Virus record (IMG/VR): IMGVR_UViG_2913112809_000004
Location: 1 to 47,442 of that record
Source of the DNA: a virus
Taxonomy: Duplodnaviria > Heunggongvirae > Uroviricota > Caudoviricetes
Direction: 5' to 3' (one strand)
DNA: 47,442 nt
Shown here: piece after piece, positions 12,001 to 15,000 of the stretch
Position numbering within the stretch: position 1 is the first letter of the stretch
How the letters are laid out: each line of letters begins with the position of its first letter
Position numbers: made by a program

Positions 12001-15000
12001 GTCGCGACTTCAACAAATCCAAGCCCTTGTCCGTTGAGAATCCCCTGAGTAAGTCCTGAACCTTTATATTGCTTAACGAGAGATGCAAGCGCGCTCATAA
12101 GTTTGGGCAGATTCTTTGCAGCACCATCTCGCGGATCAATTCCAAGACTAACCAGGCCAGCATAGTTTGGATCGTTCGGGTTTTTCTGTGCGTTAGCCAG
12201 ATGCTGAACCAGCTCTTCTGTGCCCGAAAAATATGGCGAATAGGTGGCACGTGCGGCCTGCATTTGGGCGGTTTCCATCCCTAACCCCTGAGCCACGCTA
12301 TACTGCGCCGCGACTTTGCTTGCCATATAGCCGTAGCCAAACGGCCCCGCTACCCCTATTGCAGCTATTTTCGCCCCCCACGAAACCGTGGTTTTAAACA
12401 GGCTTTTTAACCGGGAATTAGTCGTTTTAAGCGTTGAATTGATCTGCTTGTAAGTTTTCAGCGTCTGTTTGGCGTTTTTCCCCAGCCCGCTGAGGTACTT
12501 ATCAAACATCGTTTCGCCGCGACCTTTATAGTTGCTCACCAGCGAATCCGCTGTTTTTCCGCTGCCGACAAAGCGCCCTTTTTCATCCCTTAAACGACCA
12601 TCAGTGGGTGCTACCGGAACTGGCGCGGATGAAGATGGTTTTCTGGGAGCCTGATTGACTTCTCCACCTGTGGTTGTCTGACGGGATCCACCTCCTGCAT
12701 CTGTATTCGAAGGTATTTTAATCGGCGCCCCGGCAGGGCCAATCATCAAGCCGTTGCGATACTTTTCAAATATCGCTTCAAGCCGCCTGAGGTGCTCTTC
12801 ATTTACATCCAGCGTCAGAACAGGCATCTGATTATCTGACATTCAATAACCCTCCCGGCGTCGTGCATTTACGCAGCTCACGAAACTGAGCTGCTGTTTT
12901 TACATTCAGACCGGAATTTGCCCAGATGTCGCTGAATCCGTCTCCGGCTGAGTAGTCGAGGATGTCGCTGATAACGTGCTCGCCGTCGCGCCAGAACTGG
13001 CGACAGGCTTCAATGTCGGCAATGAAGCAATCCATTCCGTAAGACTCAAGGATGAAGTGCAACTGTTCCACATTCCACTGACTGCCAGCATCATCTGCTC
13101 CGTCTGCTCCGGTGTGTTTATCGACGAGACGCATGTAAAAAAAACGAGTTCACCTGCCACATCATCAAATTCAACGATGCCGCGCTCCAGCGCCATATCA
13201 AGCGGGATCGTGTCGTAGCCTTTCCCTTCGGCTGGGTAAACCAGATTCGCAAGGCGAATGATTTCATTCACGAGCGTATTGCGAACGCCCTTTTCGCCAT
13301 CCCAGATATTCATATCTGAGGAGATCCTTTCCAGCATAAGGCAGGCGATACGCGGACCCGCAACGACGCCAAGACCTTCAGAAAAAATGGCAGAAAAGGT
13401 TTTACTCAGGATGAAGAAATGCTCTTTAAACACCTCTTTGCTGATCGGCGTGGCATGGATCCAGCCATTACCCTTTTCTGTCCGGACAGGAATAATCAGA
13501 TTCAGATTTCGGGAGATTTTCATACCAGATCCCACATTTCAGAGTTGATGTAATATGTACCGGTAATGGTGATGGCCACTCCCGGCTCGCCCCCGGCGAA
13601 GGTCATATCCTGCACATTGGTGATCGCCGTGTTATAGATATCGAAGTCACCGAACACCGTGCTGTCGCTATACACTTTTGCGTCGCCGATCGTGGCGTTC
13701 TTTTCCCATTGCGCCTTGAATTGTTTTCCCAGCGCCTGGCTACGCAGCAGGTGAACACGCGCCTGCAAAATCATGTATGGCTGCGGCGACTGCACGGCTC
13801 CCGTCATAGCGGGTAAAAACTCCGTGATATTGCCCTGAAAGGACAATTCGACGCCTTCTTTTGCCAGAAATGAGGCGGACACATTCAGTTCGGAATGAGA
13901 GGTGAATTTAACGCTGGCGCGAACCCGGTTAAGGGTGCCAACGGGGATCATTGGATTAGGCACGGTTCAGTCCCTCACGAAAGCTGCATTGTCACATTGA
14001 TGTTAAAAATGATTTCGACAAATCCGCGCATCGGCGTATAGGTGGCCGACAGGCCTGCATAACGCCCGATACCGTAATCATTCGGATTAGTGTTGATATA
14101 CTGGCGGAAAGGCACTGCATCGACGACAGGCTGGCCGTTGACCAGGCCGTAAGATACGCCCGTATTGAACACCGCCTGTGCGACCTGCTGTAGACGGTCG
14201 ATCCCGTCCTGGTTGTAGTAAAGCGGGTTAATTGGGTTATTGCTGCCGTTGATCACCGTGTTGGCGAGCTGCATATCGACATTAATCTGCACCCAGTCCA
14301 CGGAATACCAGTACGTCATATCGTTACCGTCACTGGTAACGCCTTTCACCAGAATCGTGTTGGAAATTCCACCCTCAGCCCCCGTGTCGACGTAGTTAAT
14401 ATTCTGCTTCGTCATTGTGGTCAGAATGGAATTTTTGCCCTTGTGGGCGTTTACCGCCTGCAGATAGCGAAATGCCATCGGCGGCACCTTGTTGATTTCT
14501 GAAGGTGATGCGGAAACATAGTTCCACATTACGGCTGCTGCCGCGTTTGTCGCCGGGTACGTATCATCCGCCGTTGCAATAACCGACTTAATACCGGCAT
14601 AAGGCGAAACGTAATTCGTGTCGTCCGGCGTTTTCGTCAGCACGAAGAAATACTGCATCGCTTCGTTGGCGGTGTGGAGTTTTGCCAGACTGATAAATTC
14701 TGCGTCACCATCCCACGGCTGCGGCACCAGATACGCATAAAACCGCAGGAGCGGATCTTCCATATAAGCTTTCAGTGCAGCGATTTCCTTACTGACCCCG
14801 CCTTTCTGTACTCCCAGCTCCAGCAGGTAAATCCCAACTGAATTTCCCTGGGCAAAAAACATGTTTACTGCCGTCACCAGATTTTCACTGCCGACAATGG
14901 AAAACTGCTCCAGTGTCACTGGCGAACCGGAAAGCTGAGAATCAGCAATCGTCCAGGTCAGTGTTTTTTCATCCGTGACGGTAGCAGAATATTCGCCATT

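What the first reader, a model, noticed from the sequence alone, without database searches (positions are those of the whole stretch)
12832..13535. Candidate programmed -1 frameshift in the tail assembly chaperone pair
A T8 tract (U8 in mRNA) at 13137..13144 lies inside the upstream chaperone ORF, and the downstream ORF is in the -1 frame and runs into the tape measure gene, the conserved arrangement for tail chaperones. Atypically, the 0-frame continues for another 80 low-complexity residues instead of stopping soon after the slip site. So the native run may be T7, which would end the 0-frame within a few codons but would then put the downstream ORF in the +1 rather than -1 frame.
Basis: partly seen in the sequence, partly recalled or inferred. 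Interest (0 to 1): 0.45.

Follow-up and report, generated by a model that had tools for sequence, protein, structure and literature searches.

The report
Conserved frameshift site in tail chaperone
A run of eight T's inside a phage tail-assembly gene is a real, deeply conserved signal that most likely makes some ribosomes slip back one base and swap the protein's normal C-terminal end for a different domain; the principle is textbook, but the slip site lies unusually far inside the gene and no public record annotates it.

Summary
On the minus strand, T8 (13144..13137) lies in phase as GTT TTT TTT (heptamer T_TTT_TTT) inside the 205-aa ORF between the tube and tape-measure genes. A 101-codon ORF opens in the -1 frame and ends 11 nt inside the tape-measure gene.

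The T7 idea is refuted. T8 is present in 82 of 85 close copies. Remote relatives (about 30-45% identity, including isolated Klebsiella, Pantoea, Yersinia and Shewanella phages) keep an in-phase T7-T9 run. At the site 43 of 44 Phe codons are TTT, against 48% elsewhere in these genes.

The -1 domain is real coding sequence. In three isolated phages it contains no ATG, GTG or TTG, so it must be reached by recoding. Rare "fused" ORFs are run-length variants.

The 0-frame continuation is not junk. Residues 130-170 are conserved across the 112-sequence family alignment and modelled at pLDDT 93-96; the slip site sits inside a helix. Only residues 171-205 are disordered.

So the two products share residues 1-129 and then differ, over about 229 nt of dual coding, against 26-36 nt from slip site to stop in known cases. 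Most likely mechanism: ribosomal -1 frameshifting, possibly aided by RNA polymerase slippage. I rate it a new variant of a known kind.

The parts
13137..13144 (-). T8 run (U8 in the mRNA). The in-phase slippery heptamer T_TTT_TTT is 13143..13137, spanning the last base of V127 plus F128 and F129.
   Evidence: Searches show the sequence and phase. Searches show T8 in 12/12 and 69/72 close relatives. Searches show in-phase T7-T9 in remote lineages, with 43/44 Phe codons TTT at the site.
13137..13523 (-). Shared N-terminal part (codons 1-129) present in both products.
   Evidence: Third-position diversity of 0.36-0.48 against 0.03-0.16 at positions 1 and 2. phmmer matches of most remote relatives end at query residue ~130. 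Same predicted fold in both AlphaFold models.
12906..13136 (-). 0-frame-specific arm of the non-shifted product: residues 130-170 are structured (13014-13136), residues 171-205 are a disordered Ser/Thr-rich tail ending ...IPV (12909-13013), and the stop is at 12906-12908.
   Evidence: Invariant C131, N136, P138, Q140, M145, V148, G150, W152, L161, W164, S167 and L168 in the close clade. S167 and L168 are >=90% conserved in 112 family members. pLDDT is 93-96 for 130-170 and 55-64 beyond. tblastn to isolated phages extends to residues 168-174. A C-terminal [IVLMF]-P-x occurs in 68/121.
12832..13137 (-). -1-frame arm (T-like domain): Tyr codon TAC at 13137-13135, a Gly/Asp-rich variable linker, then a ~80-aa helical domain; stop TAA at 12832-12834.
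   Evidence: The -1-frame third position is the most variable from gene nt 511 onward, including beyond the 0-frame stop. Conserved motif YG.D.F.AD(I/V)..R.(F/Y)WRDG...S.(I/L)LD(Y/W)..G.GF. phrog_14324. Helical model of moderate confidence.
10854..12842 (-). Tape-measure-position protein with a C-terminal SLT lytic transglycosylase domain (662 aa). Its start overlaps the end of the -1 ORF by 11 nt.
   Evidence: ORF. (PF01464 SLT, E 4e-20, residues 486-583). (phrog_7694; phrog_2013 lytic tail protein). The PdC23 homologue is annotated as tail length tape measure protein.
13520..13963 (-). Tail tube-position gene (147 aa by the longest ORF; RefSeq homologues start at the ATG equivalent to 13951). 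Its stop overlaps the chaperone ATG.
   Evidence: phrog_6566. Position directly after the sheath gene, conserved in remote loci.
13975..15312 (-). Tail sheath gene (445 aa), which defines the module as a contractile tail.
   Evidence: phrog_205 tail sheath, E 6.9e-55. Related Yersinia phages are myoviruses by electron microscopy (PMC9224151).

Best explanation
The gene between tube and tape measure encodes two tail-assembly-chaperone-like products that share residues 1-129 and then diverge.

Most ribosomes read straight through and make a 205-aa protein. Its residues 130-170 complete the globular fold, and residues 171-205 form a flexible Ser/Thr-rich tail with a conserved terminal (I/V)-P-x.

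A minority of ribosomes, with tRNA-Phe in both the P and A sites on U_UUU_UUU, slip back one base. They then read UAC (Tyr) and continue in the -1 frame, giving a ~230-aa protein: residues 1-129, a Gly/Asp linker, and an ~80-aa helical T-like domain. It terminates just inside the tape-measure gene.

By analogy with lambda G/GT, the shared part would bind the tape measure and the -1 domain would recruit the tube protein. Neither product is expected in virions.

Shown here: the site, its phase, its conservation, the coding status of both arms, and the lack of any other route to the -1 arm in relatives. Inferred: that the slip is ribosomal, its efficiency, and the assembly roles.
For: (1) Phase and anatomy of the site.

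(2) T8 in 82 of 85 close copies. The single T7C variant (L068) still forms T_TTT_TTC.

(3) Remote lineages at about 30-45% identity, including five isolated phages, all carry an in-phase T_TTT_TTT within T7-T9 runs. At the site 43/44 Phe codons are TTT against 48% TTT elsewhere, and the preceding codon always ends in T.

(4) The residue after FF is T, I or M in 118 representatives. These are A[C/T]N codons, so the -1 frame reads Tyr and never a stop.

(5) The -1 arm shows a coding signature and conserved motifs.

(6) PdC23 and two Yersinia phages have no ATG/GTG/TTG anywhere in the 107-115-codon -1 ORF. Chronis and the Shewanella phage have none before codon 73 and 61.

(7) Run-length variants (T9, T6) yield ORFs joined exactly at ...VFF-Y... 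while keeping the other arm intact.

(8) Sheath-tube-chaperone-tape measure synteny is conserved.

(9) G/GT-type -1 frameshifting is the established rule for long-tailed phages (PMC5009743).

(10) T7 lineages are shorter than the 9-nt runs reported to give efficient RNA polymerase slippage.
Against: There is no experimental product. No conserved stimulatory RNA structure lies downstream: consensus -3.2 kcal/mol, and the window's fold is weaker than shuffles at z = +2.1. No conserved upstream SD-like stimulator was found.

The fold and sequence show no significant similarity to any characterised chaperone.

The slip site is ~229 nt from the 0-frame stop, against 26-36 nt in known cases. U7/U8 runs are also prone to RNA polymerase slippage, which would give the same protein. 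In this clade an ATG follows the run directly, so some independent initiation cannot be excluded.
Confidence: 0.75

Rival explanations
1. Transcriptional slippage is the main route. RNA polymerase adds one U on the T8 template run, and the resulting U9 mRNAs encode the fusion in a single frame. Ribosomes would not need to shift.
For: UUUUUUU is under-represented in E. coli genes in all three frames, possibly because of transcriptional slippage (PMC4066793). Bacterial RNA polymerase slips efficiently on runs of 9 A or T. Some lineages carry T9 (L090, L091). The protein product would be identical. No ribosomal stimulator was found.
Against: Several lineages have only T7 (L087, L088, L089, PdC23, L068), which is shorter than the 9-10 bp hybrid and the 9-nt runs documented for efficient slippage. 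The element conserved in every lineage is exactly the in-phase heptamer. Run length beyond that varies.
Confidence: 0.15
2. The -1 ORF is a separate overlapping gene, translated from its own ATG at 13134. The U-run would act only as an A/U-rich leader, so no fusion is made in this clade.
For: An ATG directly follows the run in every member of the close clade, and the synonymous third base of 0-frame codon 130 is always A. PHROGs holds the ORF as a separate 97-aa family. Other genes in the module also have weak Shine-Dalgarno sequences.
Against: There is no Shine-Dalgarno within normal spacing: the only purine-rich match sits 15 nt upstream and is not conserved. No upstream stop codon is available for coupling. 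The ATG is replaced by non-start codons in remote relatives (Y-C, Y-L, Y-G, Y-V), and three isolated phages have no start codon at all in the ORF. The residues right after the run form a variable Gly/Asp linker, as expected for a fusion.
Confidence: 0.05
3. Sequencing error or pseudogene. The true run would be T7 (0-frame stops after a few codons, the first reader's idea) or T9 (one fused gene), and the two-ORF picture would be an artefact.
For: Homopolymer miscalls do occur here: T9 or T6 variants and scattered indel hybrids appear in a few assemblies.
Against: T8 appears in 82 of 85 independent close copies, including complete RefSeq genomes. Both downstream frames stay intact in every variant. 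The 205-aa product is conserved and folds confidently.
Confidence: 0.01
4. The frameshift is real, but the long 0-frame continuation is a tolerated by-product of the -1 coding sequence and has no function of its own.
For: Given only the -1 protein, the 0-frame would stay open by chance with probability 0.06-0.25 per sequence. In gene nt 511-615 the 0-frame second position is the most variable, and residues 171-205 are disordered.
Against: Residues 130-170 have invariant Cys, Trp, Pro and Leu positions. S167 and L168 are >=90% conserved across 112 members at a mean 29% column identity. pLDDT is 93-96 with a helix spanning the slip site. The 0-frame third position is the most variable in nt 391-510. 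The tail length (median 59 residues after FF) and the terminal [IVLMF]-P-x (68/121) recur family-wide.
Confidence: 0.04

Closest known systems
Phage lambda gpG / gpGT tail assembly chaperones (-1 frameshift at G_GGA_AAG; the conserved G/GT arrangement of long-tailed dsDNA phages)
   Same: The gene lies between the major tail/tube gene and the tape-measure gene. The second ORF is in the -1 frame, has no conserved initiation signal and ends at the tape-measure start. There is an in-phase heptamer and no required downstream structure. Two products share an N-terminal part.
   Different: The slip site is ~229 nt (family median ~177 nt) upstream of the 0-frame stop, against 26-36 nt on average in known sets. 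The fusion therefore lacks ~76 residues of the non-shifted protein, including ~40 structured ones, rather than containing essentially all of it. The heptamer is U_UUU_UUU. No detectable sequence or fold similarity was found.
Phage P2 E / E+E' (myovirus tail chaperone pair; from my own recollection the slip is on a T-rich run, T7G; the review records only that efficiency in P2-like phages is 2-3-fold higher than in lambda)
   Same: Contractile-tailed phage with a -1 frameshift before the tape-measure gene and, by recollection, a U-rich slippery run (for the efficiency statement).
   Different: Not homologous by any search done here. By recollection the P2 E ORF ends shortly after the slip site, whereas here a long conserved alternative C-terminus follows.
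E. coli dnaX tau/gamma (-1 frameshift at A_AAA_AAG inside the gene)
   Same: The slip site lies well inside a gene, so the two products have different C-terminal parts and are not simply 'short' and 'short plus extension'.
   Different: In dnaX the shifted frame stops almost at once, so there is no second domain. It also uses strong SD-like and hairpin stimulators, which are absent here. The biology is unrelated.
Transcriptional-slippage recoding sites (Thermus thermophilus dnaX; Shigella spa13 and other type III secretion genes)
   Same: A homopolymeric T/A run inside a coding region gives access to another frame.
   Different: The review reports efficient slippage with runs of 9 A or T. Here the run is 8, and only 7 in several lineages, and what is conserved is the codon phase of the heptamer.

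Membership tests
G/GT-type tail assembly chaperone pair expressed by programmed -1 frameshifting | The gene lies between the major tail (tube) gene and the tape-measure gene. | tested here: met
   Order sheath (phrog_205) - tube - this gene - SLT-carrying tape-measure-position protein. The same order holds in remote loci and isolated phages.
G/GT-type tail assembly chaperone pair expressed by programmed -1 frameshifting | A second ORF overlaps in the -1 frame, extends to the tape-measure gene and lacks its own conserved translation start. | tested here: met
   The -1 frame is open from 13149 to 12832 and overlaps the tape-measure ATG by 11 nt. Three isolated relatives have no start codon at all in this ORF, and two more have none before codon 61 or 73. 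The window's own ATG has no Shine-Dalgarno within range.
G/GT-type tail assembly chaperone pair expressed by programmed -1 frameshifting | A slippery heptamer X_XXY_YYZ in the 0-frame phase within the overlap, conserved among relatives. | tested here: met
   T_TTT_TTT at 13143..13137. Conserved in 82/85 close copies and in all 14 remote loci examined (three after correcting the run length).
G/GT-type tail assembly chaperone pair expressed by programmed -1 frameshifting | [quoted passage not shown] | tested here: not met
   229 nt (76 codons) separate the run from the 0-frame stop. The family median is 59 residues after FF. Averages in known sets are 26 nt and 36 nt. Residues 130-170 are structured and conserved.
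G/GT-type tail assembly chaperone pair expressed by programmed -1 frameshifting | Sequence or fold homology to a characterised tail assembly chaperone. | tested here: inconclusive
G/GT-type tail assembly chaperone pair expressed by programmed -1 frameshifting | Both products are made at a fixed ratio, both are required for tail assembly, and both are absent from virions. | not testable with these tools
   Needs protein detection and genetics.
Transcriptional-slippage recoding site | A homopolymeric A/T run long enough for efficient RNA polymerase realignment (about 9 or more). | tested here: not met
   T8 here. T7 in L068, L087, L088, L089 and PdC23. The threshold is taken from the review.
Transcriptional-slippage recoding site | A heterogeneous mRNA population with extra U at the run. 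| not testable with these tools
   Needs RNA sequencing.
Independently initiated out-of-frame overlapping gene | A conserved start codon with a ribosome-binding site at the 5' end of the embedded ORF. | tested here: not met
   The ATG is confined to the close clade. Remote relatives have non-start codons there, or no start codon in the whole ORF. The best anti-SD pairing is 15 nt upstream and is not conserved.

The most novel reading that the evidence does not exclude
This large family of myovirus tail chaperones (626 protein clusters at 50% identity) uses the frameshift as a branch point inside a folded domain, not as a C-terminal extension device. The non-shifted protein has its own conserved C-terminal subdomain plus a flexible tail ending in an (I/V)-P-x peptide, with a function the fusion lacks. 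The fusion swaps this for a tube-recruiting domain. About 60-76 codons are under selection in two frames at once, arranged so that the ordered part of each frame lies mostly over the disordered part of the other. Both ribosomal and RNA polymerase slippage on the U-run may set the ratio.
Probability: 0.45. Interest if true: 0.6.

Novelty: new variant of a known kind. Interest (0 to 1): 0.5.

Why it matters
It extends the near-universal G/GT frameshift rule to a widespread, wholly unannotated family of temperate myoviruses. These include E. coli, Salmonella, Citrobacter, Klebsiella, Pantoea, Yersinia and Shewanella phages and prophages.

It shows that the rule "slip site close to the stop" is not general. 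Frameshift predictors that penalise distance from the stop, and gene callers that forbid long same-strand overlaps, will miss these sites, so the -1 domain goes unannotated. It is unannotated in all five isolated-phage records inspected.

It also offers a compact natural example of a ~230-nt dual-coding segment with structure predictions for both frames. It predicts that the short chaperone has a function of its own that the fusion cannot supply, which is testable by mutations silent in one frame.

Tried and rejected
- **T8 as a statistical anomaly:** rejected. The window has 13 T8/A8 matches against 8.9 +/- 4.0 expected.
- **Downstream stimulatory hairpin or pseudoknot:** none found. RNAalifold consensus is -3.2 kcal/mol with almost no covariation, and the single-sequence fold is weaker than shuffles.
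- **Shine-Dalgarno comparison to rule out the internal ATG:** weakly informative only, because many genes in this module are translationally coupled and have poor SDs.
- **Stop-avoidance test by synonymous reshuffling:** the 0-frame stays open by chance with p about 0.06-0.25 per sequence, so this alone does not prove selection. Conservation and structure were needed.
- **'Fused' single-ORF homologues as Rosetta-stone evidence:** rejected as evolved fusions. Their DNA shows T9 or T6 at the run with the other arm intact, and other hybrids (P0002-P0004, P0176, P0250) change frame at other positions (P0002-P0004 look like assembly indels; no DNA was examined for these five). They still confirm the predicted junction ...VFF-Y....
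- **The search for related loci with the 111-sequence alignment:** failed because the alignment is too diverse. I sampled lineages with the look-up of encoding contigs instead.
- **Structure prediction with locus-derived sequences:** I rebuilt the alignments from database proteins.
- **AFDB fold search:** unavailable.
- **Papers on the related isolated phages:** no mention of a frameshift or chaperone.
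Full report
**What is in the sequence.**
The genes of this region are on the minus strand. The + strand A8 at 13137..13144 is therefore a U8 tract in the mRNA.

It lies in the ORF that starts at ATG 13523 and stops at 12906-12908 (205 aa; the ORF listing also gives a 209-aa version from GTG 13535). It reads GTT TTT TTT ACA (V127 F128 F129 T130). This places a canonical X_XXY_YYZ heptamer, T_TTT_TTT (13143..13137), in the 0-frame phase.

The -1 frame is closed by a TGA at 13152-13150 and opens at 13149. It reads CGT TTT TTT TAC ATG... 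and stays open for 101 codons after the run, to TAA at 12832-12834. That is 11 nt inside the next gene, whose ATG is at 12842.

The neighbours are:
- a tail sheath (13975-15312; phrog_205, E 7e-55);
- a 147-aa tube-position protein (13520-13963);
- downstream, a 662-aa protein with a C-terminal SLT lytic transglycosylase domain, in the tape-measure position.

A T8 run on its own is not remarkable, however: the window has 13 T8/A8 matches against 8.9 +/- 4.0 expected.

**Is the run length real?**
Two deposited phages (Rac-SA53 at 96.6% and a phage labelled Actinobacillus at 88%) and prophages in 92 of 5426 complete E. coli genomes carry this region.

- All 12 copies fetched (83-98% identical) have exactly T8 and a 205-aa 0-frame ORF, annotated as such by RefSeq.
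- Of 72 further loci, from IMG/VR and a Pseudescherichia genome and reaching down to 68% amino-acid identity, 69 have T8 at the same codon phase.
- L049 has T9, which gives a fused 227-aa ORF. L084 has T9 plus other indels.
- L068 has T7C, read as GTT TTT TTC, which is still an in-phase T_TTT_TTC heptamer.

The 0-frame ORF is 205 aa in 69 of the 72. The suggestion that the native run is T7 is therefore refuted.

**Both downstream frames are coding.**
I measured per-site diversity in 59 unique sequences of the close clade.

- The N-terminal 375 nt show a strong 0-frame third-position signature: 0.36-0.48 against 0.03-0.16.
- From gene nt 511 to 680, including the 60 nt beyond the 0-frame stop, the most variable position is the third position of the -1 frame (0.20-0.30 against 0.06-0.12). 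The -1 ORF is therefore translated.
- In nt 391-510, just after the run, the 0-frame third position is still the most variable (0.22-0.26).

In the -1 frame, the first ~20 residues after the run are a variable Gly/Asp-rich stretch. A well-conserved ~80-aa domain follows...ILESYG.D.FIADIEA.RQFWRDGEHVIS.ILDY.AGAGF...KTAAQ.RELLKFK.

In the 0-frame, residues 130-170 carry invariant C131, N136, P138, Q140, M145, V148, G150, W152, L161, W164, S167 and L168. Only the last ~35 residues are Ser/Thr-rich and variable.

A reshuffling test was not decisive. Given the -1 protein alone, the 0-frame stays open by chance with p of 0.06-0.25 per sequence. The converse probability is 0.002-0.036.

**The wider family.**
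I ran phmmer with a natural T9 fusion (P0001) against 1.84 billion cluster representatives. It found 626 clusters, 391 of them at E <= 1e-10.

Most are 185-200-aa proteins at 35-48% identity whose match ends at query residue ~130, which is exactly the slip position. Their tails are nevertheless alike:
- FF, then T, I or M;
- a helix-like segment;
- LWG...TSL..TE...SLPTST;
- a Ser/Thr/Ala-rich stretch;
- often a terminal (I/V/L)-P-x.

In a 112-sequence alignment with mean column identity 29%, F129 is invariant, and F128, S167 and L168 are >=90% conserved. The tail after FF has a median of 59 residues and a minimum of 46. The terminal [IVLMF]-P-x occurs in 68 of 121.

The residue after FF is T (73), I (35) or M (10). 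These are codons A-[C/T]-N, exactly as needed for the -1 frame to read TAY (Tyr) and not a stop.

**DNA of remote lineages.**
Nine metagenomic or genomic loci and five isolated phages were examined at the DNA level: Klebsiella Chronis, Pantoea PdC23, Yersinia vB_YenM_21.09 and 29.18, and Shewanella vB_Sb_QDWS. Apart from the three run-length variants described below (T9, T9 and T6), which fit the design once the run length is corrected, all show the same design:
- an in-phase T_TTT_TTT inside a run of T7 (after ACT, GCT or TGT), T8 (after GTT or ATT) or T9;
- a T-like domain of 95-115 codons in the -1 frame, which in four of the five isolated phages ends 7-10 nt past the annotated tape-measure start (76 nt past it in Chronis);
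- the order sheath - tube - this gene - tape measure.

Across the 22 lineages tabulated (11 from the close clade, 11 remote), 43 of 44 Phe codons at the site are TTT, while Phe codons elsewhere in the same genes are 52 TTT: 57 TTC. The preceding codon always ends in T. That is nucleotide-level selection for the run.

The cluster representatives that look like single fused ORFs are run-length variants. P0124/L086 and P0127/L092 have T9, and P0132/L093 has T6. In each, the ordinary 0-frame tail (...S(I/L)PS*) is still intact in the other frame. They are errors or recent slippage mutants. They do display the predicted junction...VFF-Y....

**How the -1 arm is reached.**
In the close clade an ATG follows the run directly (13134). 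The only Shine-Dalgarno-like match is 15 nt upstream and not conserved, and there is no stop codon nearby for translational coupling.

In remote relatives this codon is Cys, Leu, Gly, Val or Ile. PdC23 and both Yersinia phages have no ATG, GTG or TTG anywhere in the 107-115-codon -1 ORF. Chronis has none before codon 73, and the Shewanella phage none before codon 61.

Independent initiation therefore cannot be the conserved mechanism. The domain must be reached from the upstream frame.

No conserved RNA structure follows the site. Whether this absence matters is uncertain; from my recollection, the lambda site also needs no downstream structure.

Two slippage mechanisms would give the same protein: ribosomal -1 shifting on U_UUU_UUU, and RNA polymerase adding one U.
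- The review of Atkins et al. reports efficient bacterial polymerase slippage with runs of 9, over a 9-10 bp hybrid.
- UUUUUUU is avoided in E. coli genes in all frames, possibly for that reason.
- Several lineages have only T7, and what is invariant is the phased heptamer.

I therefore favour the ribosomal mechanism, with a possible polymerase contribution in T8/T9 lineages.

**Structure.**
AlphaFold2 on the 205-aa product with the 112-sequence alignment gives mean pLDDT 89 and pTM 0.79.
- Residues 11-170 score 93-99.
- A helix at 119-135 runs straight through V127-F128-F129.
- It is followed by a helix at 138-152, a short strand at 155-157 and a helix at 161-167.
- Residues 171-205 are disordered (55-64).

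The fusion, modelled from a 12-sequence alignment, is less certain (pLDDT 72.5). It keeps the same N-terminal fold, continues the helix to residue 138, has a disordered linker at 139-150, and then has an all-helical domain.

The frameshift thus replaces about 40 ordered and 35 disordered residues with a different domain. It does not simply extend the protein.

The ordered part of each frame lies largely, though not wholly, over the disordered part of the other.

**Comparison with what is known.**
The arrangement matches the G/GT rule for long-tailed phages in position, frame, heptamer and lack of a start.

It departs in one defining respect. The slip site is 229 nt from the in-frame stop (family median ~177 nt), whereas the averages in the SEA-PHAGES and Xu et al. 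sets are 26 and 36 nt, and a current predictor rarely succeeds beyond ~50 nt.

Homology to characterised chaperones could not be shown:
- no Pfam hit, and only PHROG families of unknown function;
- no PDB sequence hit;
- only sub-threshold BFVD hits, among which several annotated chaperones appear at E 0.18-0.7.

None of the deposited relatives annotates the -1 ORF or a frameshift. The papers found on these phages do not mention one. The Yersinia phages are myoviruses by electron microscopy.

**Verdict.**
The frameshift interpretation is supported by strong comparative evidence. The T7/artefact idea is refuted.

The feature is a new variant of a known kind: a G/GT-type recoding site used as a mid-domain branch point, with a long dual-coding segment, conserved across a large unannotated family. 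The roles of the two arms and the ribosomal nature of the slip are inferred, not shown.

Noticed in passing
L097 (OK094664) and OP650936: Shewanella phage vB_Sb_QDWS and 'Hujiaoplasma phage zrk29-1' (host given as a Tenericutes bacterium) have the same record length (47902) and identical tblastn statistics. They are probably one phage deposited under two very different hosts.
   Followed up: no
L002 (PP818812.1): 'Actinobacillus phage vB_Apl-pPE4' is 88% identical at the nucleotide level to E. coli prophages across this region and has the same gene layout. The host label looks doubtful.
   Followed up: no
window 10854-12842; L085 3309-4994; L087 738-1829: The tape-measure-position protein carries a different cell-wall hydrolase domain in different lineages: SLT here, Phage_lysozyme2 in L085 and VanY in L087. 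This suggests swapping of the lytic module.
   Followed up: no
L091 1885-2385: An ORF with a weak HNH_3 hit sits between the end of the -1 ORF and the tape-measure gene. It may be a homing endonuclease inserted in the tail module.
   Followed up: no
L049, L084, L086, L092, L093; P0001 (seen on 6 contigs): Run-length variants at the slip site (T9, T6) recur in public assemblies and create apparent fused genes. Whether they are sequencing errors or real replication-slippage mutants, which would make only the fusion, is unknown.
   Followed up: partly
window 12909-12917 and family-wide C-termini: The non-shifted product often ends in a short (I/V/L/M/F)-P-x peptide (68 of 121 representatives; IPV here) after a disordered Ser/Thr-rich tail. 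This looks like a docking motif, partner unknown.
   Followed up: partly
window 29508-32213: Seven of the ten distinct runs of eight or more A or T in the window cluster in this ~2.7-kb stretch, including an A10 and a T9. I did not examine it.
   Followed up: no
window 13132-13134: The ATG directly after the run is kept in every member of the close clade, even though its first base is a synonymous site in the 0-frame. It is absent in remote relatives. A clade-specific minor internal start is not excluded.
   Followed up: partly
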